64,000 nt of DNA from Patescibacteria group bacterium (GTDB lineage Bacteria; Patescibacteriota; Patescibacteriia; PEXW01), in the NCBI GenBank assembly GCA_038063455.1, contig JBBTVB010000005.1, forward strand, positions 3,482 to 67,481, read 5' to 3'. The notes under the pieces were generated by a model. The model saw nothing but the letters and a program-made list of their open reading frames with translations, searched no databases and was not told the DNA's origin. A program made the translations under genes and the position numbers. Within the stretch, counting starts at the first letter, position 1; each line of letters begins with the position of its first letter. Shown here piece after piece: positions 13,422 through 58,479 of the stretch.

Positions 13422-13496
13422 CGCGGGATGGAGCAGTAGCAGCTCGCCGGGCTCATAATCCGGAGGTCGGGGGTGCAAATCCCCCTCCCGCACCCA
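13422..13496 (+). tRNA. tRNA-fMet (CAT), initiator type
   Basis: Cloverleaf CGCGGGA...CTCATAA...TCCCGCA-C-CCA, with a C1xA72 mismatch and G:C pairs at the base of the anticodon stem. Confidence 0.8.
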
Positions 13497-13640
13497 CGCG
13501 AGGGCACGGCAACACCGTGACCTGACGACACCAAGAGTTGAGAAGCCGCAGCGTTAGCAAACCGAAGCACGGTTTACTGGCTCTGCGGCTTCTGTCATTA
13601 TTGAGCAGCATAGAGCGGGTACTTTTATACTAAGTATTAT

Positions 13641-13717
13641 GCCGGGGTAGCTCAGTTGGTTAGAGCGGAGGACTCATAAGCCTCAGGTCGGCGGTTCAAA
13701 TCCGCCCCCCGGTACCA
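13641..13717 (+). tRNA. tRNA-Met (CAT); either an elongator or tRNA-Ile2 (lysidine), which cannot be told apart by eye
   Basis: GCCGGGGTAGCTCAGTTGGTTAGAGC...CTCATAA...GGTTCAAATCC...CCCCGGTACCA. Confidence 0.88.
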
Positions 13718-13858
13718 GCTCGTTTCGTTCGTCGAGCTTCGCGTGTCGCCGTTCGGCAACCCGCTGCGCCCTCCGAACGAAGCCTCGCTCAACCCCACAG
13801 ATGCGTGCTCGACGCTTCGCGTCTGTGCGCCACATCTGCGGGGGCCCCGGATAGGAAA
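13718..13858. repeat. Structured intergenic repeat, copy C1 (partner at 63581..63716)
   Basis: Shared blocks: agctcgtttcg, cgaagcctcgct, and an 11-bp hairpin at 13793..13853 that covaries with copy C2. Confidence 0.55.
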
Positions 13859-13861
13859 TAC

Positions 13862-13946
13862 GCCGCTGTGGTGGAATTGGTAGACACGCACGACTCAAAA
13901 TCGTGTGGGGCAACCCATGTCGGTTCGACTCCGACCAGCGGTACCA
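13862..13946 (+). tRNA. tRNA-Leu (CAA)
   Basis: Long variable arm, anticodon loop CTCAAAA, T-arm GGTTCGACTCC and an encoded CCA end. Confidence 0.9.
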
Positions 13947-45030: not shown

Positions 45031-47034
45031 TTATACAGTAATCGGAACACGATGAAGTTCATCAAGCCAAGGTTGAACCGAGGCTTCGGGTGGCATGCGC
45101 CAGTCGCCACGAGGTGAAAGGGCGGTAAGGCCAACCTTGGGCCCGTCTGGAACGCAGTTCCGTTTGAACTGGTTACCGAAGAACTTCCGAAGGAACACCT
45201 CGAGCCACTGCTTGATCTCTTCCAGCGTGTACTGCCCATCGAACGCCTGCATCGCCAACCGCGCAATGCTGAATGGTGAGCGGCCGTGCCGGACGAAGTA
45301 GTACAGGAAAAAATCATGGAGTTCGTACGGACCAATAATAGACTCGGTTTTCTGAGCGATTTTTCCATCCGCATCCGCTGGCTGCAACTCCGGCGAAATG
45401 GGGGTATCCAAAATGTCCAAGAGCACCTTGTTGACCTCCGCATCCTGTGCAAAGACATGCTCTGCTGACCAACGAATAAGGTGGCTAATGAGCGTCTTCG
45501 GGACGCCGGCATTGGGGTTGTAGTGTGAGGCGTGATCCCCGAACATCGTCGTCCAGCCCAGGGCCAGCTCCGAAAGGTCGCCGGTGCCCTGGTCAATGGC
45601 ACCAAGTTTGCCGGCCAGGGCAAGCTCAGTCATTTTTCGAGCCCAGGCTTGAGCATTCTCGTAGGTGACGTTGTGGTCAGATAGGTCATGGCCAATGCTC
45701 TCCAAAAGTGCAGTTGCCAACGGAACAATGGAGATATCCTTGAAAGTTACGCCGAGTGCTTTTGCAAGCGCCTCAGCATTCCCTTTGGTCCGCGAGGTGG
45801 TTCCAAACCCAGGCATGGTAACGGCAATGACGTTGGTCCGCGGCAGCTTGAGTAAGTCCATCGTGTACACCGCAACAAGCAATGCGTGCGTGGAATCCTG
45901 CCCGCCCGAAAGCCCGAGAACGAGCTTCCGGTATGCCTCGGGCAGCGACACTATGCGCCGAGCCAAGGCCGACGTCTGAATGTTAAACGTCTCCTGGCAA
46001 CGCTCATTGCGAATCGCCGGATCCGATGGTACGAACGGTTTCGATTCCAGTGGGTACCTAAATTCGCGCAAGGTACCGCTGTTGAGGTCTTGGCCCAAAC
46101 AGTCATCAAAGGTAACTGTCCGGAAGACTTTTGTGGCATCGGATGCGTTCTGACAAAACGAACTTTGCTGCCGGTCATACATGAGGGCGTAGAGGTCCAC
46201 GTCCGTCACCGTACAAGATCCGTGCAAAGCAAAACGCGTATTCGTCGCCAGTAGCTTCCCGCCCTGAGCAATGAGTGCCTCGCCATCCCAAGCCAAATCG
46301 GCTGTACTCTCGCCGAAGCCGGCAGCGCAGTAGATCTGCACGGCCAGATTGCGGCCCGAAGAGCCGAGCACGAGCTGTCGCCGGTACTCGCCTTTGCCAA
46401 TAGTAATATTGGAGGCAGAGAGATTGGCCAGCACGGTTGCTCCGGCCAAGGCGGCGTGGGCACTCGGCGGGATTGGCACCCACAGGTCTTCGCAGATTTC
46501 GGTGAAGACCGAAAAATTTGGATGGGCGCTTGACCGCATGATAATGTCCGTACCAAAAGGCACATGCTGACCAAGCAGCTGGACCACATTCTTGCGAGCA
46601 TTGCTGGCGTGGGCAAAGTACCGCGCTTCATAAAATTCGCGGTACGACGGCAAGTATGATTTCGGCGTCACACCCAGTATCCTGCCATTGCAAAAGGTTA
46701 CGGCACAGTTGTAGAGTTGCGCGTCAACCATCAGGGGCATACCCACAGAAATGAGCATGTTCCAACCATCTGTTTTCTCAACCAGATATTGCAGTGCATC
46801 ACGTGCGCCACTGGCAAGCGTCTCGGAAAAAAACAGGTCGCCACTGGTATAGCCGGTAAGACCCAACTCAGGACACACAGCGTACATGGTGCCTTGGTCA
46901 CGCGCATCCTGCAAGTACTTTAGGTGTTTCTCGGCGTTCTGCATGGGGTGTGCAAGGCTGACCTCGGGAATAACCGCAGCAACCCGGGCAAAACCGTGAT
47001 TTCGGATATCCGGAAACTCTGATGCGAAGCGCAT
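45031..47034 (-). CDS. nadE: Glutamine-dependent NAD+ synthetase (nitrilase domain plus NadE domain)
   Basis: 667 aa with an N-terminal CN-hydrolase fold and the PP-loop 'GLSGGQDST'. Confidence 0.93.
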
Positions 47035-47172: not shown

Positions 47173-48435
47173 TTACACTCGACACGTTTCCTCATGTGTT
47201 TCGGTATACCCGAACACGCCTTTGTAGCGTACGATCTCCTTGGCTGGTCCCATAGCTTTCGCTAGGTTGTCCGAAAGTTTTACCGTCGGTTGACCATTCG
47301 CGGCAATCGCTTTGGCCACGAGTGAAAGGGTTGGTAGACCCAAGTCGTTCGTCAGCGTCGTGCCCCAACCGTATGAGATGTTCATCTGATCGCCGTACCG
47401 ATCGTCAATGTCGAGGATCTTCTGTAGATCTAAGCCATCACTCGGCAGCCACAGCTTGGTTTTGGGGTCAATCCCAAGCTTGCGATAGTACGTAATGCGT
47501 TCAATGCCAGCGAGCAATGGGTCGGCCGAATCCTCGCGCGTCCCTTTCCACTTCCGGGCACGTTCTTCTCCAAAAACCTTGAAGAAAAATTCGGAACCAA
47601 AAGTGTCAGGCAACGCAATGGAGAGACCAACGCCGTACAAATCGAACCACTGATCGAGTACCACTTCGGTTGAAGCGATGAGCTCGGCATCAGATCTGGC
47701 AAGTGCGCCACGAACCATTGGCAATTCATGCGCGCTCGTACCCATGGGGATAATCCCTAGTTCATGTGCGAGTTCCGTATTCGACGTACCGAGTAATTGG
47801 GAGCGTGGCAGCTCCTCGGATAGGGCCCGGGTAATATCCCGTTGCCACACCCTACCAAACCGTCGCCGCGTGCCAAATTCAATAAATTTGATGCGCGGAC
47901 GTTTTTTGAGCACTTCAATTTTATCGTGCAGGCGGCGGATGCCATCGGCATATATCGCCTGTCGCTGGAAGCGGCTCTTGTCGCGCAACAGAGCTCTATA
48001 GTAGAGCTCATTCACGATTCCCAGGGCAATAGTCTCCCAGAGCGAAACCGCAGCCCACGGGCCAGTAAAACGTAAGTCGAACTGTCCGTCGATAACCTGC
48101 AGCTCGTAGGCTGGCAACCCCATATTTTTTAGGAACTCTAGGTACTCCTCCGAGAACATATTTTTCCCATAGACGTCCATCCCACGCAAGTAATAGATTT
48201 CACTCTGCGTGAAGCGCGATGTCATGACATGATCCAGCTCCGCTCGCAGTTCGTGCTCGTCGATGCAATCCGCAAGGCGAACTGTCGACGTGCGGTTCTT
48301 CATCCCGAATGTGACAATCACATCTCGATAGTGTTTGTAAATGAAGTTCCCCATAGTGAACTTGTAGAAGTCCACATCCAGCAACGAAGTAACGATTGGC
48401 TCACTATTGCTTCTGGGTAAGAGTTGGAAGCTCAT
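47173..48435 (-). CDS. pncB: Nicotinate phosphoribosyltransferase
   Basis: 'LDVDFYKFTM' N-terminus and 'IEFGTRRR'. Confidence 0.9.
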   Translation of the reverse strand: MSFQLLPRSNSEPIVTSLLDVDFYKFTMGNFIYKHYRDVIVTFGMKNRTSTVRLADCIDEHELRAELDHVMTSRFTQSEIYYLRGMDVYGKNMFSEEYLEFLKNMGLPAYELQVIDGQFDLRFTGPWAAVSLWETIALGIVNELYYRALLRDKSRFQRQAIYADGIRRLHDKIEVLKKRPRIKFIEFGTRRRFGRVWQRDITRALSEELPRSQLLGTSNTELAHELGIIPMGTSAHELPMVRGALARSDAELIASTEVVLDQWFDLYGVGLSIALPDTFGSEFFFKVFGEERARKWKGTREDSADPLLAGIERITYYRKLGIDPKTKLWLPSDGLDLQKILDIDDRYGDQMNISYGWGTTLTNDLGLPTLSLVAKAIAANGQPTVKLSDNLAKAMGPAKEIVRYKGVFGYTETHEETCRV

Positions 48436-48450: not shown

Positions 48451-49008
48451 CTAGCGTTTATCTACTTTGTTACGGAGGAACCACTGCAAGAGCGCGAAGA
48501 CGCGTACGTCCTCGCACACGTAGTTCTCTAGTTCGCTCACAGGCAGGAAGACGCGCGTAATGCGCTCGCCTTCTTCGGCCAGGCCGAATGCTCGTTCGGC
48601 TTGCTCCAACTGGTCATTGGTAATTTCCACGTAACCCAGCCAGGCACGCTCGGTAAGGCAGCCCGCGGAAAGCGCGAGCGCGGTGCACTGGTTAAGAAGG
48701 GTAATGCTGTTTGGATCAATGGTTACGCCAACTTCTTCACCCGCTTCGTGTGCGAGGAGCTGGCGAACCGATTCGTCGCGGTCAAACCGTCCTGCGGTGC
48801 TTTCTGTAATCCGGCCGTTGGCATTTCCTGGCCGCACCATAGCCTCGCGGCACTGGCTAACCAGAAGAATCTGCTGGCGGTCACGCAAGTAGATAAGCAC
48901 ATTTGCTGAGTCTGATGTCCTCAAGAAGCGACGTTCGTGTCCATCGGTTACGACGATCTCGAGCGTGAAGCTTTGCTGAGCAACCGCTGGGGTGCCTCGC
49001 TGTTCCAT
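48451..49008 (-). CDS. NUDIX hydrolase (ADP-ribose pyrophosphatase-like)
   Basis: Nudix-box-like 'GRFDRDESVRQLLAHEAGEEVGV', with His in place of the usual Arg. Confidence 0.75.
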   Translation of the reverse strand: MEQRGTPAVAQQSFTLEIVVTDGHERRFLRTSDSANVLIYLRDRQQILLVSQCREAMVRPGNANGRITESTAGRFDRDESVRQLLAHEAGEEVGVTIDPNSITLLNQCTALALSAGCLTERAWLGYVEITNDQLEQAERAFGLAEEGERITRVFLPVSELENYVCEDVRVFALLQWFLRNKVDKR

Positions 49009-49186
49009 ACAATACTCCTGTCTATGCTAAAAGTGTAAGTTGCTTGCATGTTGTAAAAGAGCATCACTCGAATTGTTGTATTCGGGTGAGAGCACTGGGC
49101 CGAAAGGTTTCGGCACAAGGCTCTTGGGAAAAAATTGGGGTGGAGCGCAGGTTCAAACCGTACGCTCCACACCTTGGATTGAAGGA

Positions 49187-50569
49187 TCAATGCACGGGAA
49201 ACTGCAGAGCCAGGATCTTCTGCTGGGGGTCGTTGCCTGGGCAGAATGCGAGTTCTGCGGCGGCAATCCGGCTCACCCGAATGTCGAGGGCAGTCACTGG
49301 GCCCAAACTAATCCCGTCAACGAACGCTTCCACCCCACGCTTGGATGTATCCAACACACGAAGCTGAATGCGCTGGCGCAGGCCCAAGTGGACCGGTGCC
49401 CAACCAGAAGGTTCAAAGACGTTCATGCCGGCCAGGATAATGTGTTCCGTACCCACCGGCATGGGTTTTACGCCCAATGTGCGTGCGTAGCCCGTAGAAC
49501 CACCGGCTGTTGCCACAAGTGCGCCATCACTAACCAGTTTGCGCAACCGCGGCACGTCATCAACGATGACTTCCAACCACGTTGCTTGCCCGCCATTGAT
49601 AGAGCGCAGCCAAGCGTCATTGAATGCGAGGTGTGAAGTCGTTGCACCGCTCGGCTGTGTTGCCGTTACGTAGAGCAAAGGAGATTGCAGGATAGTGAGC
49701 TGCCGGAAGAGTTGATGCGGTTCACTGTTCGACGGGACCTCGTTGAGGAGAAAACCGTGATGGCCAACGTTCAAACCTAGAATGGGCAAACGCTGCCGCC
49801 AGTTGCCTCGAATCACATGGAGCATGAAACCATCTCCACCAACTGCAACGATGCAATTCGGGTCACTCTCTACCCGTACAGGTGCAAGCCAATCAACGAT
49901 GCTCGGCACACGCGGATTCGTTGCATCGCCAATGCAAAGTACTCGAGGGTTATTGAGCGAGGTTCCAGGGGTTAGGAAATCTGGCTGCATGCCGCGGTAC
50001 AAGCCGTGGCGTTCGATGTAGCCCGCAACTGCAGGCACAACGAGGTCGGCATATGGCTGGCGCGTGAATACCCGTTCGCGAATCTCCGTGCTTGCACCCG
50101 TGTGGGGGGTGGGCAGGACCTCAGCATGCGGAGGCAGGTCTGCCTGCAGGAGCGGTGCGGTCTGGCGCGGGATGACCACCATGGGTCGTTGCCACACTTC
50201 TGCGCCACGTTCCCACTCCCGCTGAATGATCGACTGGCCGCTTGCGCCATCAGCAATGAGATCGCTACCGACAGCGAGCCAGCACTCGCCCTGATCGGCG
50301 TACCGGTCCAGCAAAGCCGCGGAGCGAGTAAACACATCGTTCTCCAGGTCTTCAAGGTCAACCGTCACTTTGGGCATGTCACCAAAAGTGAGATCCGCAA
50401 TGACGGCACGGTGAATGGGCGCGATGTCGTTTGTGGTGTGCTTGTCTGGACGCGGCCCGCAAGGCACTACAATAACCTGATCAAAACGTGAAGCAAGCGC
50501 TTCCACGATTCGCCGGTGGTGCAGGCCGCTTGGATTTCCACTCAAGCCATACAGGGCAATGCGTGGCAT
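49187..50569 (-). CDS. Fusion protein: NMN/NaMN adenylyltransferase (NadD-like) plus NAD kinase
   Basis: N-terminal 'YGLSGNPSGLHHRRIV' and 'GASTEIRE'. C-terminal 'VAVGGDGFMLH', 'NDAW' and 'ATAGGSTGYARTLG'. The ATG at 50569 follows GAGG. Confidence 0.8.
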   Translation of the reverse strand: MPRIALYGLSGNPSGLHHRRIVEALASRFDQVIVVPCGPRPDKHTTNDIAPIHRAVIADLTFGDMPKVTVDLEDLENDVFTRSAALLDRYADQGECWLAVGSDLIADGASGQSIIQREWERGAEVWQRPMVVIPRQTAPLLQADLPPHAEVLPTPHTGASTEIRERVFTRQPYADLVVPAVAGYIERHGLYRGMQPDFLTPGTSLNNPRVLCIGDATNPRVPSIVDWLAPVRVESDPNCIVAVGGDGFMLHVIRGNWRQRLPILGLNVGHHGFLLNEVPSNSEPHQLFRQLTILQSPLLYVTATQPSGATTSHLAFNDAWLRSINGGQATWLEVIVDDVPRLRKLVSDGALVATAGGSTGYARTLGVKPMPVGTEHIILAGMNVFEPSGWAPVHLGLRQRIQLRVLDTSKRGVEAFVDGISLGPVTALDIRVSRIAAAELAFCPGNDPQQKILALQFPVH

Positions 50570-50692
50570 TGCTACCTCACTTTCTATACATTCAATGTTC
50601 GTTTTTTTACTTTGTCGTGGTCGCAACGTAGGTTGTGACCAGAGAGGTGCTTCGATGCTTCCATCGGTGCGCGTCTCTGCAGAAAAAATGGT

Positions 50693-50730
50693 GAGAGGAA
50701 GTACGACACTAGCATGTCGTGCTTCCTCTC
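50693..50730 (-). terminator. Intrinsic terminator of pncA
   Basis: GAGAGGAAG-c-ACGAC...GTCGT-a-CTTCCTCTC followed by ACCATTTTTTC on the minus strand. Confidence 0.7.
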
Positions 50731-50749
50731 AATGATGGAATGTACTGGC

Positions 50750-51322
50750 TCAGTCGCGAACGATTGTGACGCCCGCAGCTTCCATTGCCCGAATGGCATT
50801 TGTTCCGTCATCAGGCTTGATGTTAGCTGCACGGCAGCTGCTCAGATAGACAGTGACGTTGAACCCACGCTTGGCGCCATCGATGGCTGTAGCCTTGACG
50901 CAATAATCCGTAGCGAGCCCAACAACATCCAGATTGGTGACATTGTTTGCCCGCAAATCCTGTTCGAGTGGCACACCGTCAGTTGTGACCCCTTCAAAGG
51001 CACTATAACCATCGTCAATCTGGCTTTGACCTTTGGTGATGATGGTCGTATCGGTCAAATCCAGCTGCGGATGAAACTGCGCACCCGGCGTATCTTGCAC
51101 GCAGTGGACGGGCCAAATCTTAAAGTGCTCAGTATCTGGCGGGTGGCAATCCCGGGAAGCGTATTTTCTGGCGTAGGCTTCGTCTCCGGACATCATGTTG
51201 ATGTACGGAACGACAGCATCGCCATCAGGCACTTCCAATGCCCCGCGTTTGCAAAAATCTTTTTGGACATCGACGATAATAAGAGCAGTATAACCACTAC
51301 CAACAACGGTTTTCGTTTGCAC
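50750..51322 (-). CDS. pncA: Nicotinamidase/pyrazinamidase
   Basis: Isochorismatase fold with 'ALIIVDVQKDF' and 'VVGLATDYCV'. GTG start after AAGGAGG. Confidence 0.88.
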   Translation of the reverse strand: MQTKTVVGSGYTALIIVDVQKDFCKRGALEVPDGDAVVPYINMMSGDEAYARKYASRDCHPPDTEHFKIWPVHCVQDTPGAQFHPQLDLTDTTIITKGQSQIDDGYSAFEGVTTDGVPLEQDLRANNVTNLDVVGLATDYCVKATAIDGAKRGFNVTVYLSSCRAANIKPDDGTNAIRAMEAAGVTIVRD

Positions 51323-51491: not shown

Positions 51492-52475
51492 CTACGGGGA
51501 TAGTGTATTCGGGGCGCGAAGCACTGTGTCGCATACCGCAATAGCCTGGGCCAGGCGCTGCTCATGTGGACCAGACAAAAGGGTGTGGGGCACATTCCGT
51601 TGCTGCAGCACGGTGACGAAACGTTTGTGCATATCGTGGCGGATGTGCTCGCCATCCCGCAGACCATCCTGCACAAACGGAATATCCACATCTGTGAGAA
51701 AGTAGTGGTCGTAACGTCGGCCGGTGGCCAAGGCCGCCACCGCTGCAGAGGTGCTGCCAAGATAGCGCTCCTCCCAGAGTTCAGTTGCGAGAGCGTTGGT
51801 GTCGCACACCAACAATCCGGAGCAACATCGAGCCAACCAATCTTCCAATCGATTCTGTTCTCTGGCAATGAACGCAAACTCGGTCGATACCCATGCTGGC
51901 TGAGGCTGGGTGTGAAACTTTGCTTCCGAATACAAACGACCAAATTCCGGAACCCAGCTGGTTGCGTAATGCACAGCAAGGGCGCGGGCCATAGTGGTGG
52001 TGCCGGTCGACTCGGCACCCAAAATGCAAACCCTTCTGGCAAAGTACGCTTGCACGCACGGGGACAAAAAATTCCAGTGACCAAACGGGTCACGCCGAAT
52101 ATCCGTAGCAGAGATAGGCACCTGCCGGCGCGCAGGATCAACGGCAACATGTCTAGCCCCTAAGAACTGGGCGTATGCATCGCCGTATGCCTCCGAGGTA
52201 AACACCACGTCTGGTCGGTACCCAAGAAACGCTTCGGTATATTTCGCCCAGGCTTTCGAGTCATCCGGCGGTGGTATGTCGGGCACAATGCGTACCTTGA
52301 CCCCCGGAACCATCTCACGCAACCAGACGGCGCGAGTCTCGGCAGGAATCTTCTGGGCTGGATTGTCACAGATAACTACCGTGAGTGTATCCACCTGGGC
52401 CAACGCAGTGGTAATGAGAAACGCGTGCCCCTTATGCGGCGGGTAGAACTTACCAATAACGAGCCCGCGCTTCAT
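51492..52475 (-). CDS. nadR: NadR-type bifunctional NMN adenylyltransferase / ribosylnicotinamide kinase
   Basis: 'GKFYPPHKGH' and Walker A 'GAESTGTTT'. The ATG at 52475 overlaps the pnuC stop (ATGA). Confidence 0.9.
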   Translation of the reverse strand: MKRGLVIGKFYPPHKGHAFLITTALAQVDTLTVVICDNPAQKIPAETRAVWLREMVPGVKVRIVPDIPPPDDSKAWAKYTEAFLGYRPDVVFTSEAYGDAYAQFLGARHVAVDPARRQVPISATDIRRDPFGHWNFLSPCVQAYFARRVCILGAESTGTTTMARALAVHYATSWVPEFGRLYSEAKFHTQPQPAWVSTEFAFIAREQNRLEDWLARCCSGLLVCDTNALATELWEERYLGSTSAAVAALATGRRYDHYFLTDVDIPFVQDGLRDGEHIRHDMHKRFVTVLQQRNVPHTLLSGPHEQRLAQAIAVCDTVLRAPNTLSP

Positions 52476-53140
52476 ACAGATGTTGGTGAGGACTTTGGCA
52501 ACGACCGCTGCCAAACCAGAAGTCCCTTCGTGGCCAAAGCCAAAAAAATGACGTAGAGCAGCGACACAAAGATAACGCCTTTGCTGTAGTACAAACCAAT
52601 ACCTATAACATCAACGGCAATCCACAAGTACCAGGACTCTACTTTTTTATGCGCCATCAAAATCGTCGCGGCAAAACTCATAACCGTGGTTACAGCATCA
52701 AGGTATGGGAATGAAGCGGCCACAGGGAAAAGCGACGGAAAGTAGATATGCAGGTGCCCAACCAGGTAACCCATGCAGATACTCCCCACCACAATAACCA
52801 CGCCGTAGCGCCAGTTGCTTTTTGGAGTATTTCGCGATACCGGCAGTTCCTGCGCACCAGTCTTGCGTCGCCGACCCCACTTGCTCCACGCCCACCAACC
52901 GTAGAAGCCGGTAATGAGAAAGTATATTTGCTCAACAAAATCTGAATACAGTTGAATCTTGTAAAAAAGAATGGCAAAGAGTACAACGCCGATATTGCCA
53001 ATCGGCCAGTTCCAAATGTTCTTACGCACAACCAACCAGACGCACGCGATATTAAAAAGTGTGCCGGCAAACTCTATAAAACTCATGGGATACCCGAGGA
53101 GCGTAAAAAGGGTAAAATCCAGGCTGAAAATATTAGGCAT
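52472..53140 (-). CDS. pnuC: Nicotinamide riboside transporter PnuC
   Basis: 'CVWLVVRKNIWNWPIG' and a 7-TM profile. Confidence 0.9.
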   Translation of the reverse strand: MPNIFSLDFTLFTLLGYPMSFIEFAGTLFNIACVWLVVRKNIWNWPIGNIGVVLFAILFYKIQLYSDFVEQIYFLITGFYGWWAWSKWGRRRKTGAQELPVSRNTPKSNWRYGVVIVVGSICMGYLVGHLHIYFPSLFPVAASFPYLDAVTTVMSFAATILMAHKKVESWYLWIAVDVIGIGLYYSKGVIFVSLLYVIFLALATKGLLVWQRSLPKSSPTSV

Positions 53141-53177
53141 GGGGGTGGGATATGAGTGGAAGAAGAAATATCATATT

Positions 53178-53193
53178 GTTATATTTACACTAA
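53178..53193. promoter_or_regulatory. Candidate NrtR operator, upstream of pnuC
   Basis: The reverse complement reads TTAGTGTAAATATAAC, 38-53 nt before the pnuC ATG. A near-identical box lies at 53892. Confidence 0.35.
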
Positions 53194-53210
53194 CTTAACG
53201 GTAAAAAATT

Positions 53211-53885
53211 TTACAATATATCAGCCCGCGCAATCGAACGATGCGTAAAGGCATACAGCTGTGCCGGCCGGTTTGCCTCCCCTACCCGCTTCTGTCCGGT
53301 CGGCCGTACGAGCTTGAGAGCTAGCACTTTCTTACGGAAATTCCGCTTGTCAAAACCCTTACCAATAATTACTTCGTATACCTGCTGCAGCTCCGACAAG
53401 GTAAATTCCTTCGGCAGTAGATTGAAAGCGATATTCGTGTACGCTAGTTTTGCCTGCAGGCGCTGCACGGCAATTGCTACAACCTCTGCATGGTCATATG
53501 CCATCCCTGGTAGCTTGTGTACCGGGAACCAGCGCACGCCGGCATACTCTTTCGTCGTGCGTAACTGCAGGTGATCGCTCGGTACCAGAGCAAAGTACGC
53601 CACGGATACCACCCGCCCAAAAGGATCGCGTTGCACCTTTCCAAAAGTGTAGAGTTGCTCCAAGTACACGTTACGAATGCCTGCTTTCTCAGCAAGCAAA
53701 CGGTGTGCCGCATGGTCAACAGATTCGGTCGGGAGTACTAACCCACCGGGTACTGCCCATTTGCCGGTAAAAGGTGCTTTTTGCATTTGAATGCACAGCG
53801 CGTGCAATACCCCCTCGCGGATAGTCAGGATGACGACATCCGAGGCAATAACTGCAAAAGTGTACTTCTTCGTGGGTTTTGGCAT
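53211..53885 (-). CDS. nrtR: NrtR-like regulator (Nudix domain plus C-terminal winged helix)
   Basis: Degenerate Nudix box 'PGGLVLPTESVDHAAHRLLAEKAGI' and the C-terminal 'FTLSELQQVYEVIIGKGFDKRNFRKKV'. Confidence 0.8.
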   Translation of the reverse strand: MPKPTKKYTFAVIASDVVILTIREGVLHALCIQMQKAPFTGKWAVPGGLVLPTESVDHAAHRLLAEKAGIRNVYLEQLYTFGKVQRDPFGRVVSVAYFALVPSDHLQLRTTKEYAGVRWFPVHKLPGMAYDHAEVVAIAVQRLQAKLAYTNIAFNLLPKEFTLSELQQVYEVIIGKGFDKRNFRKKVLALKLVRPTGQKRVGEANRPAQLYAFTHRSIARADIL

Positions 53886-53891
53886 AGATAC

Positions 53892-53907
53892 TTAGTGTAA
53901 TATAAAC
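53892..53907. promoter_or_regulatory. Candidate NrtR operator, upstream of nrtR
   Basis: TTAGTGTAATATAAAC, 7-22 nt before the nrtR ATG and overlapping a TTGACG-N17-TACTAT promoter region. Confidence 0.35.
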
Positions 53908-53971
53908 ACATAGTAAACCTTGTGCTTTTCTGCGTCAAGGCCAAGTTATCCACACGTGCGGTCAATAAAAA

Positions 53972-54007: not shown

Positions 54008-55078
54008 TCATGCATGCGGGGAAACCTTTGCGCGCTGTGCAAATACTTCGAAAAGCTGCGTACCGAGGTCAATCGCCTCTTGGAAATCTGGGCGAAAATT
54101 TCGCCACTCTTCCGGGAAACCAGCGAAGCCACAATTCGCACCAATGAGTGACCCGCAGATTGCGGCGGTGGTGTCAGTGTCAATGCCGGAGTTCACGCAA
54201 GTAAGCAGTGCCGTGCGCCCGTCAGTTGGGTAGCTCAGGAAAATACCCAGCGCGTACGGCACGGAGTCAATCGCCAGCCAACCAGGCGCAAGTCCTTCGG
54301 CAAGTTGGTTGGGCTGCCCTAAGCGAGCTTCCACCCAACGTAGGCGCTCAAGGGTTGGCGTGTAGTCTCCCCAGTTCGATGGAGGATGGATACAGCGCCA
54401 ATCTTCTTGAAGCCAATGCAAGAACTCTCGTGCTTCTGCGTGGTTCGTAATGGGGCGCACCTGGCACCACTGCATTGCCATGGCAATTGCGTAGGCGGTG
54501 TGCAATGCATCAACGTGGCTGTGTGTTAGCCGCCAGAGCAGCTCGGTATACTTTGCCGTTGCGAACGCAGTACTCGCATCAAATGATGTGCCGAGCACTT
54601 GCTCCCGCAGGTAAATGGCCAGCGCAAGTGGCGCAACTTTCATGGCCACCCCATTCCCGGCACCCAAACCTGGCTTTGCTTCCGCTACTGTCCAGGGGTT
54701 TCGACCGCCGGGCTGGTTAGCAAAGCACCGCCGAAGTTCCTCGGTGCTCCCTTGGGTGGTTCCACCCCAACCCGCGGTCGTCTCGGCTGCAGCTTGTACA
54801 TGCCGGCGGGCCATATCCTCTTGGTTATAGCCGTCGGAGGCGATGAGTGACTCCGCTACCACCCTTGTTAGCTGCCAATCATCTGTTGACTCACCAGCTT
54901 TGAACTCTGATTGGACTTTCAGTCTTTTCTGGATGGCGTCGACAAATGTGGTAATACCCATGCCATTGGTTGCTAGCTGAATCTCTTCAGGGCTCATGGT
55001 TTCTACGGGCATGCCAAGGGCGTCGCCGATGCGGACTCCGAGCAAACTCGCTTGAACTCGCTCAAGTGAAATGTGCAC
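54008..55078 (-). CDS. ADP-ribosylglycohydrolase family protein
   Basis: 'LLGVRIGDALGMPVE' and 'GIDTDTTAAICGSLIGA'. GTG start at 55078 after GGAG; the tracked ATG at 55135 is an alternative. Confidence 0.85.
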   Translation of the reverse strand: MHISLERVQASLLGVRIGDALGMPVETMSPEEIQLATNGMGITTFVDAIQKRLKVQSEFKAGESTDDWQLTRVVAESLIASDGYNQEDMARRHVQAAAETTAGWGGTTQGSTEELRRCFANQPGGRNPWTVAEAKPGLGAGNGVAMKVAPLALAIYLREQVLGTSFDASTAFATAKYTELLWRLTHSHVDALHTAYAIAMAMQWCQVRPITNHAEAREFLHWLQEDWRCIHPPSNWGDYTPTLERLRWVEARLGQPNQLAEGLAPGWLAIDSVPYALGIFLSYPTDGRTALLTCVNSGIDTDTTAAICGSLIGANCGFAGFPEEWRNFRPDFQEAIDLGTQLFEVFAQRAKVSPHA

Positions 55079-55119
55079 TGTTTGTACTCCTCTCTCTAGT
55101 GTTTGGTATTTGTGCCAGC

Positions 55120-55148
55120 AACCTATCACAGACAATTTTTGAGGTCAA
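55120..55148 (-). promoter_or_regulatory. Candidate promoter
   Basis: On the reverse complement: TTGACC, a 17-nt spacer, then TAGGTT. Confidence 0.45.
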
Positions 55149-57223: not shown

Positions 57224-57299
57224 CTGGCTCCCCCGGGTGGAGTCGAACCACCAGTTACTGCATTAACAGTGCAGCGTTTTGCCAATTAAACTACAGGGG
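57224..57299 (-). tRNA. tRNA-Asn (GTT), divergent AT-rich D-arm copy
   Basis: The reverse complement reads TCCCCTGTAGTTTAATTGGCAAAACGCTGCACTGTTAATGCAG...GGTTCGACTCCACCCGGGGGAGCCA. Confidence 0.85.
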
Positions 57300-57481
57300 A
57301 ATAAAAAACAACCGCCGATTGGCGTGAGCGACTGCATGCAACACAAACGCGCGCCAATGGCGATTAGGGAGTTTCTTGATTATTATTGGCGAGGCAGTGT
57401 TGCATGGCTTTCATGCTATAGGGAATGGAAAATCCTGTCAAAAAGTTTGTTCGCAAGAACGCGAGAGGTAGGAAATGAGAA

Positions 57482-57940
57482 CTAGTATTCGTCAATCACA
57501 ATCTTCTTTTGTTGCATCAGGGTAGAGAAAGCATTTGGTTTTTGCATAAGTTCTTCCATATTCCTGGGCACTACTTGCCAACTTAAGCCATACGTATCTT
57601 TGCACCAGCCGCATTGTTCGGATGTTGGGACGCTAGAAAGTTTTGACCAAAAATAATCAATTTCTGCTTGGTCTGCACAGGCAATTGCAAAAGAGACCGC
57701 TTCACTGAAACGAAACTCAGGCCCAGCATTGATGGCTATAAAACGAAGACCGTCTAGCTCAAATGCAATAGTCAGCACTTTGCCAGCTAAATCTTTCTGA
57801 AACTCAGCCAGTCCCTCTTCAGTACTTTTAGGATAATATTCTGTAGATAGTATTTTACTGTTTGGAAAAACTGAAACATAAAAGTCAACAGCCTCTTTGG
57901 CGTTCCCATTAAACCACAAATTAGGTGTAATTTTTTGCAT
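57482..57940 (-). CDS. VOC/PhnB-like protein (3-demethylubiquinone-9 3-methyltransferase domain family)
   Basis: 'ITPNLWFNGNAKEAVDFYVSVF'. Composition looks AT-richer than the surroundings. Confidence 0.85.
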   Translation of the reverse strand: MQKITPNLWFNGNAKEAVDFYVSVFPNSKILSTEYYPKSTEEGLAEFQKDLAGKVLTIAFELDGLRFIAINAGPEFRFSEAVSFAIACADQAEIDYFWSKLSSVPTSEQCGWCKDTYGLSWQVVPRNMEELMQKPNAFSTLMQQKKIVIDEY

Positions 57941-58404: not shown

Positions 58405-58479
58405 TGGCTCCGGGGACAGGATTCGAACCTGCGACCAATCGGTTAACAGCCGACCGCTCTACCACTGAGCTACCCCGGA
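58405..58479 (-). tRNA. tRNA-Asn (GTT)
   Basis: The reverse complement reads TCCGGGGTAGCTCAGTGGTAGAGCGGTCGGCTGTTAACCGATTGGTCGCAGGTTCGAATCCTGTCCCCGGAGCCA. Confidence 0.9.

What the first reader, a model, noticed from the sequence alone, without database searches (positions are those of the whole stretch)
49187..50569. Single polypeptide fusing NadD-like adenylyltransferase to NAD kinase
The first 190 aa or so carry nucleotidyltransferase signatures (G-x-x-G-N-P-x-x-x-H-H, and GASTEIRE matching the ISSTxIR motif). The remaining 270 aa or so carry NAD kinase signatures (GGDGFML, NDA, ATAGGSTGY). There is no stop codon or frameshift between the two parts. A fusion would channel NaMN or NMN through NAD(H) to NADP in one enzyme. 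I am not aware of this architecture as a described standard, and the window also encodes a second NMNAT in NadR, so the two may have divided roles.
Basis: partly seen in the sequence, partly recalled or inferred. Interest (0 to 1): 0.55.

Follow-up and report, generated by a model that had tools for sequence, protein, structure and literature searches.

The report
NadD-type adenylyltransferase fused to NAD kinase
This gene really does encode one protein joining an NAD-building enzyme (NadD type) to the enzyme that turns NAD into NADP; the same fusion occurs in hundreds of uncultured bacteria, is labelled only "NAD kinase" in databases, and I found no paper describing it.

Summary
Observation confirmed. 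Window 49187-50569 (-) is one uninterrupted 460-aa ORF. It has an ATG start preceded by GAGG, and terminator-like hairpins lie upstream and downstream of the gene. Residues 1-194 are a NadD-type nucleotidyltransferase domain. Residues 210-460 are a complete short NAD kinase.

It is not an assembly chimera. More than 500 protein clusters and at least 312 species-level genomes carry the same full-length architecture. The 80 listed are mostly labelled Verrucomicrobiota, Acidobacteriota, Planctomycetota and Patescibacteria.

The NadD half belongs to a distinct subfamily in which the canonical HxGH signature reads GxHH. The final His is invariant, and the ISSTxxR Ser and Arg and the ring-stacking Trp are kept. 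The same subfamily also occurs alone and fused to NadE or to a Nudix hydrolase. In many genomes it sits in the order PncA-[NadD]-(Nudix)-PncB-NadE, as it does here.

Best reading: a bifunctional NaMN adenylyltransferase / NAD kinase inside an NrtR-associated NAD salvage island.

Databases already hold the architecture, but seven literature searches found no description of it. Novelty: a new variant of a known kind. Interest is moderate.

The parts
49187..50569 (-). Complete fusion ORF: 460 aa plus TGA stop at 49187-49189. Identical to NCBI MEK7570380.1, annotated 'NAD(+)/NADH kinase'.
49988..50569 (-). NadD-type nucleotidyltransferase domain (aa 1-194). It has the GxHH variant of the HxGH signature (G15-L-H17-H18), the ISSTxxR-type motif GASTEIR (S160, R164) and the ring-stacking Trp W119. 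An 8-residue insertion relative to B. subtilis NadD precedes that Trp.
   Evidence: TIGR00482 end-to-end match. The family N-domain profile against PDB gives B. subtilis NadD 1kam, E 6e-17, positions 3-194 vs 7-193. AF2 N-domain model pLDDT 93.5. The Foldseek top 50 are all NadD/NMNAT, TM 0.7-0.8. Conservation.
49943..49987 (-). Short conserved linker (aa 195-209) between the NadD C-terminal helix (YIERHGLYRG) and the first NAD-kinase strand.
   Evidence: Secondary structure and pLDDT of the full-length AF2 model; alignment A1.
49190..49942 (-). Complete short NAD kinase domain (aa 210-460) with GGDG (244-247), the N317-D318 motif and TAGGSTGY (354-361).
   Evidence: NF003406, E 4e-37; PF01513 33.4 bits vs cut-off 25.5. 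Foldseek: LmNADK1 2i2a, E 6e-19, TM(target) 0.78 over 269 columns. Invariant residues.
50575..50578 (-). Shine-Dalgarno-like GAGG, 5 nt upstream of the ATG.
   Evidence: Sequence read.
49129..49173 (-). Terminator-like hairpin plus U-run just downstream of the fusion gene.
   Evidence: strand folding: -24 kcal/mol, z -5.8, followed by UUUUUU. The simple terminator scan missed it.
50682..50731 (-). Terminator-like hairpin plus U-run downstream of pncA, that is upstream of the fusion gene. It implies the fusion gene is its own transcription unit.
   Evidence: strand folding: -26.8 kcal/mol, z -6.7.
50750..51322 (-). PncA nicotinamidase, upstream neighbour.
   Evidence: PF00857, E 6e-23; NF008623, E 1.5e-41.
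48451..49008 (-). Nudix hydrolase of the YffH/AdpP (ADP-ribose pyrophosphatase-like) type, downstream neighbour. Elsewhere this Nudix is fused to the same NadD subfamily.
   Evidence: It is 51% identical (E 8e-60) to the C-terminal half of the NadD'-Nudix protein P0213.
47173..48435 (-). PncB nicotinate phosphoribosyltransferase.
   Evidence: NF003704 401.7 bits, above cut-off 379.
45031..47034 (-). Glutamine-dependent NAD synthetase NadE (CN_hydrolase + NAD_synthase).
   Evidence: NF002730 809.7 bits, above cut-off 473.
51492..52475 (-). NadR-like NMN adenylyltransferase / ribosylnicotinamide kinase without the HTH domain. The probable ATG at 52475 overlaps the pnuC stop codon as ATGA.
52472..53140 (-). 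PnuC nicotinamide riboside transporter.
   Evidence: PF04973, E 2e-52.
53211..53885 (-). NrtR-type regulator (Nudix + NrtR winged-helix domain).
   Evidence: PF21906, E 5e-26.

Best explanation
The ORF encodes a bifunctional NAD(P)-biosynthesis enzyme.

- N-terminal domain: a divergent but probably active NadD-type nicotinate-mononucleotide adenylyltransferase (NaMN + ATP -> NaAD + PPi). I call this subfamily NadD'.
- C-terminal domain: a short-type NAD kinase (NAD + ATP -> NADP).

The gene sits in a roughly 10-kb NAD salvage island, all on the minus strand. In order of transcription it reads: ADP-ribosylglycohydrolase, NrtR, PnuC, NadR-like, PncA, the fusion, Nudix, PncB, NadE. In this island the NadD' domain supplies the one Preiss-Handler step that no other gene in the island provides: PncA, then PncB, then NadD', then NadE.

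The kinase half then converts part of the NAD made to NADP. Because NadE must act between the two fused reactions, the fusion most likely gives co-expression, fixed stoichiometry and perhaps cross-regulation, rather than substrate channelling.

Shown: the two domains, their conserved catalytic-type residues, the recurrence of the architecture, and the gene context. Inferred: both activities, NaMN as the substrate, and the purpose of the fusion.
For: 1. Domains.
- NadD profile matches end to end.
- AF2 models: pLDDT 90.9 and pTM 0.90 for the full length, 93.5 for the N-domain.
- Foldseek: N-domain top 50 are all NadD/NMNAT; the C-terminal half matches NAD kinases with TM(target) up to 0.78.

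2. Residues under selection.
- NadD' half: H18 invariant in 130 of 130 members, S160 and R164 of the ISSTxxR motif invariant, W119 invariant.
- Kinase half: GGDG, N276, D318 and T354/G357/S358/T359/Y361 invariant.

3. The fusion is real and old.
- More than 500 clusters of 455-480 aa at 44-74% identity.
- 312 species genomes; the 80 listed carry labels from several phyla.

4. Context.
- In 18 of 80 related loci the fusion lies on the same strand next to PncA, PncB and/or NadE, usually in the order PncA-fusion-(Nudix)-PncB-NadE.
- A standalone 201-aa NadD' (P0174) occupies the same slot: PncA-NadD'-Nudix-PncB-rSAM-NadE.

5. Rosetta-stone links.
- NadE-NadD' fusions (P0233, P0269, P0270) join it to the enzyme that consumes NaAD.
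- NadD'-Nudix fusions (P0204, P0213) carry a Nudix domain; P0213's is 51% identical to the window's neighbouring Nudix.

6. No other NadD- or NADK-like ORF is detectable in the 64-kb window with the family profiles.
Against: - The canonical first His of HxGH is Gly in 116 of 130 members.
- The NadD equivalog scores are far below the curated cut-offs: TIGR00482 39.7 vs 112.45. The best NADK equivalog is also below its cut-off: 127.7 vs 211.
- No biochemical data exist for any member.
- Substrate preference (NaMN versus NMN) cannot be read from the sequence. The residue after the stacking Trp is Glu here and varies across the family.
- Most related loci (62 of 80) have no NAD genes nearby.
- In triple fusions that also carry a canonical NadD domain (P0195, P0272), the NadD' signature decays (SKYH, SLSD). 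This shows the domain can persist without catalysis.
- I could not check whether the rest of this genome encodes another nadD or nadK.
Confidence: 0.7

Rival explanations
1. The N-domain adenylylates NMN, or both NMN and NaMN. The two fused activities are then consecutive (NMN -> NAD -> NADP) and the product is handed directly to the kinase.
For: - Full-length AF2 pTM of 0.90 and a short conserved linker suggest a fixed domain arrangement.
- The residue after the stacking Trp is acidic (E120) in this protein. From my own recollection, not tested here, an acidic residue at this position in engineered E. coli NadD (PDB 6kh2, listed) goes with a shift towards NMN.
- Some NadD enzymes accept NMN.
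Against: - The NadR-like NMNAT in the same island already covers NMN, and it is coupled to PnuC.
- The conserved PncA-fusion-PncB-NadE order and the NadE-NadD' fusions point to NaMN/NaAD.
- Position 120 is not conserved in the family.
Confidence: 0.12
2. The NadD-like domain is a non-catalytic ligand sensor or scaffold that regulates or stabilises the kinase. A canonical NadD elsewhere in the genome does the chemistry.
For: - The HxGH first His is lost.
- Scores are below threshold on the NadD equivalog models.
- In the canonical-NadD + NadD' + NADK triple fusions the NadD' signature degenerates yet the domain is retained next to the kinase.
- The confident inter-domain packing is inferred from pTM.
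Against: - The terminal His, the ISSTxxR Ser and Arg, and the stacking Trp are invariant in the two-domain family.
- Standalone NadD' proteins exist, so the domain has a function without a kinase. They sit in the NadD slot of Preiss-Handler clusters.
- NadE-NadD' fusions exist.
Confidence: 0.12
3. The kinase domain acts on the N-domain's own product. It phosphorylates NaAD to deamido-NADP (NAADP), which NadE then amidates. This would make the fused steps consecutive through an undescribed route.
For: Only the logic that fusions often join consecutive steps. The fixed domain arrangement is compatible with it.
Against: - The kinase motifs are those of ordinary NAD kinases.
- From my own knowledge, characterised NAD kinases do not use NaAD well, and no NAADP amidation by NadE is known.
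- NadD' also occurs alone or fused to NadE without any kinase.
Confidence: 0.03
4. The fusion is an assembly or gene-calling artefact that joins two separate genes.
For: None found. The source is a metagenome-assembled genome, so the question was worth asking.
Against: - Identical-length homologues at 72-74% identity come from independent assemblies (P0002-P0004; L001-L003).
- Hundreds more occur across phyla, including on contigs of several megabases, all as single ORFs.
- The junction region is conserved in sequence.
Confidence: 0.01

Closest known systems
Bacterial NadD (nicotinate-nucleotide adenylyltransferase, EC 2.7.7.18; e.g. B. subtilis 1kam/1kaq, B. anthracis 3e27, E. coli 1k4k)
   Same: - Same fold and length, with an end-to-end profile alignment.
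- GGSFNP start of the signature, PxxxPxK segment, G-x-D strand, ring-stacking Trp, ISSTxxR-type motif and C-terminal YIxxxxLY helix are all present.
- Same association with pncB and nadE.

   Different: - HxGH is replaced by GxHH.
- An 8-residue insertion (GGxxGxSxIQ, with S113 invariant) precedes the Trp.
- Scores fall well below the curated equivalog cut-offs.
- Here the domain is covalently joined to a NAD kinase.
Short bacterial NAD kinases (NCBIfam NF003406/PRK04761 type; structural match Listeria LmNADK1 2i2a)
   Same: - GGDG, N-D and GSTxY motifs.
- Two-subdomain fold, about 250 aa.

   Different: - Only 18-20% identical to solved NAD kinases.
- Below the equivalog cut-off.
- The N-terminus is not free: a 15-residue conserved linker joins it to NadD'.
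Other bifunctional NAD enzymes: NadR (NMNAT + ribosylnicotinamide kinase), NadM-Nudix (NMNAT + ADP-ribose pyrophosphatase), and the archaeal NAD kinase/NADP phosphatase cited in PMC4518329
   Same: - An adenylyltransferase or NAD kinase fused to a second enzyme of NAD(P) metabolism.
- A NadR-like protein and a Nudix hydrolase are neighbours in this island.
- The NadD' subfamily itself also occurs as a NadD'-Nudix fusion.

   Different: - Different partner pair.
- The adenylyltransferase is of NadD type, not NadM or NadR type.
- The two fused steps are separated by the NadE reaction.

Membership tests
NadD / NaMN adenylyltransferase (TIGR00482, PF01467 superfamily) | Rossmann-like nucleotidyltransferase fold, superimposable on NadD over its full length | tested here: met
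   Family N-domain profile against PDB: 1kam E 6e-17, positions 3-194 vs 7-193. AF2 model of this protein's N-domain, pLDDT 93.5; Foldseek top 50 all NadD/NMNAT, TM 0.7-0.8.
NadD / NaMN adenylyltransferase (TIGR00482, PF01467 superfamily) | N-terminal signature GxFxPx(H/T)xGH (the HxGH motif) | tested here: not met
   This protein has GNPSGLHH and the family consensus is GGSFNPPGxHH. Aligned to B. subtilis GGTFDPPHNGH, the first His becomes Gly (116 of 130 members), the Gly becomes His (124 of 130) and the last His is kept (130 of 130).
NadD / NaMN adenylyltransferase (TIGR00482, PF01467 superfamily) | C-terminal ISSTxxR motif | tested here: met
   GASTEIR at aa 158-164; S160 and R164 are invariant in the family.
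NadD / NaMN adenylyltransferase (TIGR00482, PF01467 superfamily) | Score above the curated equivalog or gathering cut-off | tested here: not met
   TIGR00482 39.7 bits vs 112.45. PF01467 is not reported for this protein at E <= 0.01, although it is precomputed for many homologues.
NadD / NaMN adenylyltransferase (TIGR00482, PF01467 superfamily) | Genomic association with the other Preiss-Handler genes (pncA, pncB, nadE) | tested here: met
   Found in the window itself, in 18 of 80 related loci, and for the standalone NadD' P0174. NadE-NadD' fusions also exist.
NadD / NaMN adenylyltransferase (TIGR00482, PF01467 superfamily) | NaMN (rather than NMN) adenylyltransferase activity | not testable with these tools
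   Needs an enzyme assay or complementation.
NAD kinase (PF01513/PF20143, EC 2.7.1.23) | GGDG motif plus the conserved N-(E/D) and (T/S)xxGSTxY motifs | tested here: met
   GGDG 244-247, N317-D318, T354...G357-S358-T359-x-Y361. These are invariant or nearly so in the family.
NAD kinase (PF01513/PF20143, EC 2.7.1.23) | Two-subdomain NAD kinase fold | tested here: met
   Foldseek: 2i2a E 5.6e-19, TM(target) 0.78, 269 columns. P. aeruginosa, M. tuberculosis, yeast and human NADKs also match.
NAD kinase (PF01513/PF20143, EC 2.7.1.23) | Score above the curated cut-off | tested here: inconclusive
   PF01513 33.4 bits vs gathering 25.5 (met). The best NCBIfam equivalog, NF003406, scores 127.7 vs 211 (not met).
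NAD kinase (PF01513/PF20143, EC 2.7.1.23) | ATP- or polyphosphate-dependent phosphorylation of NAD(H) | not testable with these tools
   Needs an enzyme assay.
NadD'-NADK fusion family (uncharacterised; named 'NAD(+)/NADH kinase' by NCBI and 'NAD kinase/nicotinic acid mononucleotide adenylyltransferase' by JGI) | Full-length collinear alignment (about 455-480 aa) with the GxHH NadD' domain, the conserved linker and the NADK domain | tested here: met
   100% identical to P0001. 44-74% identity over 99-100% of the length to more than 100 listed members.

The most novel reading that the evidence does not exclude
The two domains form one rigid catalytic unit in which the fused steps are consecutive. 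That could be NMN -> NAD -> NADP, or NaMN -> NaAD -> deamido-NADP followed by amidation. Alternatively, the NadD' domain could allosterically gate NADP synthesis according to precursor supply. Any of these would be an undescribed way of setting the NAD/NADP ratio in Verrucomicrobiota, Planctomycetota, Acidobacteriota and Patescibacteria. It would rest on a previously unrecognised GxHH class of NadD enzymes.
Probability: 0.12. Interest if true: 0.7.

Novelty: new variant of a known kind. Interest (0 to 1): 0.35.

Why it matters
NadD and NAD kinase are both essential, well-studied enzymes and antibacterial drug targets.

- A widespread subfamily in which NadD carries a rearranged catalytic signature (GxHH) and is welded to NAD kinase shows that current annotation misses half of the protein's function. 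Metabolic reconstructions of these uncultured lineages may therefore wrongly report NadD as absent.
- The other NadD' architectures (NadE-NadD', NadD'-Nudix, CobT-NadD'-NADK) give a natural set of Rosetta-stone links for NAD metabolism.
- The practical value is better annotation, plus a testable question: how are NAD and NADP synthesis coupled? It does not reveal a new kind of biology.

Tried and rejected
- **Assembly chimera.** Rejected, because independent assemblies across phyla give the same ORF.
- **Literature.** Seven full-text searches and two paper look-ups found no description of a NadD-NADK fusion. The search covers open-access papers only. The id I tried for a review of microbial NAD metabolism is not held.
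- **AlphaFold DB fold search (afdb50)**, intended to see UniProt names: the library was not available.
- **Shared NrtR operator upstream of the fusion gene.** Not found. GT-N7(AT-rich)-AC boxes with extended similarity occur only upstream of nrtR and pnuC.
- **Sigma-70 promoter and terminator consensus scan of the island.** No enrichment over shuffles, and it missed the two strong hairpins. These were confirmed by folding instead.
- **Conserved neighbours in Verrucomicrobiota, Acidobacteriota and Planctomycetota loci without NAD genes.** Nothing recurrent: ApbE, ArgG, a PHP-domain protein, a glycosyltransferase and others.
- **A second nadD or nadK in the same genome.** This could be checked only within the 64-kb window, where none was found.
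Full report
**1. Observation**

The region 49187-50569 lies on the minus strand inside a single ORF. Translated from the ATG at 50569, it gives 460 residues and only the terminal stop.

A GAGG Shine-Dalgarno-like sequence sits 5 nt upstream of that ATG. Homologues begin at the equivalent position.

**2.

- *NCBIfam.* Residues 6-191 align end to end with the NadD model TIGR00482 (model positions 1-194, E 5e-10). Residues 237-457 align with the short NAD kinase model NF003406 (E 4e-37).
- *Pfam.* PF01513 is above its gathering score.
- *Profile against PDB.* A profile of the N-terminal domains of 19 family members finds bacterial NadD structures first. B. subtilis 1kam scores E 6e-17 over positions 3-194 vs 7-193.
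- *AlphaFold2.* The models are confident: full length pLDDT 90.9 and pTM 0.90; N-domain alone pLDDT 93.5.
- *Foldseek, N-domain.* The top 50 matches are only NadD/NMNAT structures, with TM about 0.7-0.8.
- *Foldseek, full model.* It matches NAD kinases over about 269 columns (LmNADK1 2i2a, E 6e-19, TM to target 0.78).
- No listed PDB match covers both halves, since TM normalised to the query never exceeds 0.49.

From the model, the layout is NadD domain aa 1-194, a short conserved linker aa 195-209, and NAD kinase aa 210-460.

**3. Not an artefact and not rare**

- The exact protein is in NCBI as MEK7570380.1, 'MAG: NAD(+)/NADH kinase [Patescibacteria group bacterium]', on a 277-kb contig.
- More than 500 protein clusters match at E <= 0.001, and the listed best 120 are almost all 450-497 aa at 99-100% coverage. 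Many have precomputed PF01513 + PF01467 hits. JGI already names some 'NAD kinase/nicotinic acid mononucleotide adenylyltransferase'.
- A scan of one genome per species found 312 genomes encoding a relative.
- By my count of the labels on the 80 listed genomes: 33 Verrucomicrobiota, 17 Acidobacteriota, 8 Planctomycetota, 6 Patescibacteria and 2 Myxococcota. The rest have other or doubtful labels.
- All 80 loci encode the fusion as a single uninterrupted tblastn alignment covering almost the whole query, and the three nearest relatives are 72% identical over aa 1-460.

**4. The NadD half is a distinct subfamily (NadD')**

Aligned to B. subtilis NadD (GGTFDPPHNGH), the family reads GGSFNPPGxHH. 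Among 130 full-length members:
- the first His of HxGH is Gly in 116, a small residue in most others, and His in one;
- the Gly is His in 124;
- the last His is invariant.

The Ser and Arg of the ISSTxxR motif (S160, R164) and the Trp that aligns with the conserved Trp of B. subtilis NadD (W119) are also invariant. I take this Trp to be the nicotinate-ring-stacking residue from my own knowledge of NadD structures. An 8-residue insertion with an invariant Ser precedes it.

So a defining NadD feature is not met in its canonical form. The pattern of conservation is nevertheless that of an active site under selection, not of a decayed one.

**5. Family size and other architectures**

A profile search of 1.84 billion representative proteins with the N-domain gives 282 clusters at E <= 1e-30. 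Among the best 149:
- 79 are of fusion length;
- 53 are 240 aa or shorter, and the eight full-length ones I read end just after the YIxxxxLY helix;
- the short group also mostly carries GxHH.

Other architectures:
- NAD synthetase-NadD' (P0233, P0269, P0270);
- NadD'-Nudix (P0204, P0213);
- CobT-like phosphoribosyltransferase-NadD'-NADK (P0286);
- canonical NadD-NadD'-NADK (P0195, P0272). In these, the NadD' signature has degenerated to SKYH and SLSD.

**6. Context**

The window gene lies in a co-oriented NAD island, listed here in order of transcription on the minus strand:

| Gene product | Coordinates |
|---|---|
| ADP-ribosylglycohydrolase | 54008-55135 |
| NrtR | 53211-53885 |
| PnuC | 52472-53140 |
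| NadR-like NMNAT/RNK, no HTH | 51492-52475 |
| PncA | 50750-51322 |
| Fusion | 49187-50569 |
| Nudix | 48451-49008 |
| PncB | 47173-48435 |
| NadE | 45031-47034 |

- The start of the NadR-like gene overlaps the pnuC stop codon as ATGA.
- Strong hairpins followed by U-runs lie after pncA and after the fusion gene, so the fusion is probably transcribed on its own.
- The island's G+C (53.6%) matches the window's (54.6%).
- In 18 of 80 related loci from several phyla, the fusion is flanked on the same strand by PncA, PncB and/or NadE, typically as PncA-fusion-(Nudix)-PncB-NadE.
- A standalone NadD' (P0174, 201 aa) occupies the same slot: PncA-NadD'-Nudix-PncB-radical SAM-NadE. Another (P0162) is followed by NadE.
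- The window's Nudix is 51% identical to the Nudix half of the NadD'-Nudix protein P0213.

**7. Mechanism**

The Preiss-Handler route needs four enzymes: PncA, PncB, NadD and NadE. The island encodes three of them as separate genes, and the only candidate for the fourth is the N-terminal half of this protein. Together with the NadE-NadD' fusions, this makes NaMN -> NaAD the most likely reaction of the N-domain.

The NadR-like protein, coupled to PnuC, covers the nicotinamide riboside -> NMN -> NAD branch.

The C-domain has every hallmark of a NAD kinase. On this reading the two fused reactions are separated by the NadE step. The fusion therefore gives co-expression and perhaps mutual regulation, not direct channelling. 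The high pTM and the short conserved linker hint at a fixed inter-domain arrangement, but that is inference only.

I put 0.7 on this explanation. The rivals are:
- NMN use with true channelling (0.12);
- a non-catalytic sensor or scaffold domain (0.12). This is kept alive by the altered signature and by the triple fusions in which NadD' decays but is retained;
- a deamido-NADP route (0.03);
- an artefact (0.01).

**8. Comparison with known systems, and novelty**

Each half resembles a well-known enzyme family. Other bifunctional NAD enzymes are known: NadR, NadM-Nudix, and the archaeal NAD kinase/NADP phosphatase mentioned in PMC4518329.

Seven full-text searches and two targeted paper look-ups found no description of a NadD-NAD kinase fusion or of a GxHH NadD class. 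No listed PDB match spans both domains.

The architecture is nevertheless plainly present, and partly recognised, in automated annotations. I therefore rate it a new variant of a known kind. It is real, widespread, under-annotated and biochemically untested, but it is built from ordinary parts.

**9. Limits**

- No enzymology was possible.
- Substrate specificity was not determined.
- The rest of the genome could not be searched for a second nadD or nadK. Only the 64-kb window was checked, and it has none.
- Model coordinates and PAE were not available.
- The AlphaFold DB library was unavailable.
- The literature search covers open-access text only.

Noticed in passing
window 53211-53885 (-), with sites at 53173-53198 and 53892-53917: An NrtR-type regulator (Nudix + NrtR winged helix) heads the NAD island. 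Two similar AT-rich GT-N7-AC boxes (TTAGTGTAAATATAACA and TTAGTGTAATATAAACA) lie upstream of pnuC and of nrtR. They are the only fully AT-spaced GT-N7-AC sites in the island. I recalled the GT-N7-AC core for NrtR operators from memory and did not check it. No such box lies upstream of the fusion gene.
   Followed up: partly
window 54008-55135 (-): An ADP-ribosylglycohydrolase gene sits directly upstream of nrtR, at the head of the NAD salvage island. This suggests ADP-ribose recycling is linked to NAD salvage here.
   Followed up: no
window 52472-52475: The pnuC stop codon and the probable ATG of the NadR-like gene overlap as ATGA, which indicates translational coupling. The NadR-like protein lacks the N-terminal HTH domain of enterobacterial NadR: its NF005988 alignment starts at model position 65.
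   Followed up: partly
window 48451-49008 (-); proteins P0204 and P0213: The Nudix hydrolase next to the fusion is 51% identical to the C-terminal half of P0213. In P0213 and P0204 a Nudix domain is fused to the same GxHH NadD subfamily. This NadD'-Nudix architecture is analogous to NadM-Nudix.
   Followed up: partly
proteins P0233, P0269, P0270, P0286, P0195, P0272, P0275: The GxHH NadD subfamily also occurs as NadE-NadD', as CobT-like-NadD'-NADK and as canonical NadD-NadD'-NADK. In the last type (P0195, P0272) the NadD' signature has degenerated (SKYH, SLSD) but the domain is kept next to the kinase. P0195, P0272 and P0275 share an extra N-terminal segment of about 90 aa that I did not identify.
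   Followed up: partly
L081 8944-9885: In the cluster with the standalone NadD', a radical SAM gene is inserted between pncB and nadE. Its role in an NAD cluster is unexplained.
   Followed up: no
window 57225-57300 and 58405-58479 (-); 13422-13946 (+): Two tRNA-Asn(GTT) genes lie about 1.1 kb apart and flank a 152-aa ORF (57482-57940). Separately, there is a tight cluster of two tRNA-Met(CAT) genes and one tRNA-Leu(CAA).
   Followed up: no
window 49129-49173 and 50682-50731 (-): Very stable hairpins followed by U-runs (-24 and -26.8 kcal/mol, z -5.8 and -6.7) separate pncA, the fusion gene and the Nudix gene. The co-oriented island is therefore probably several transcription units rather than one operon. 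The consensus terminator scan missed both.
   Followed up: yes
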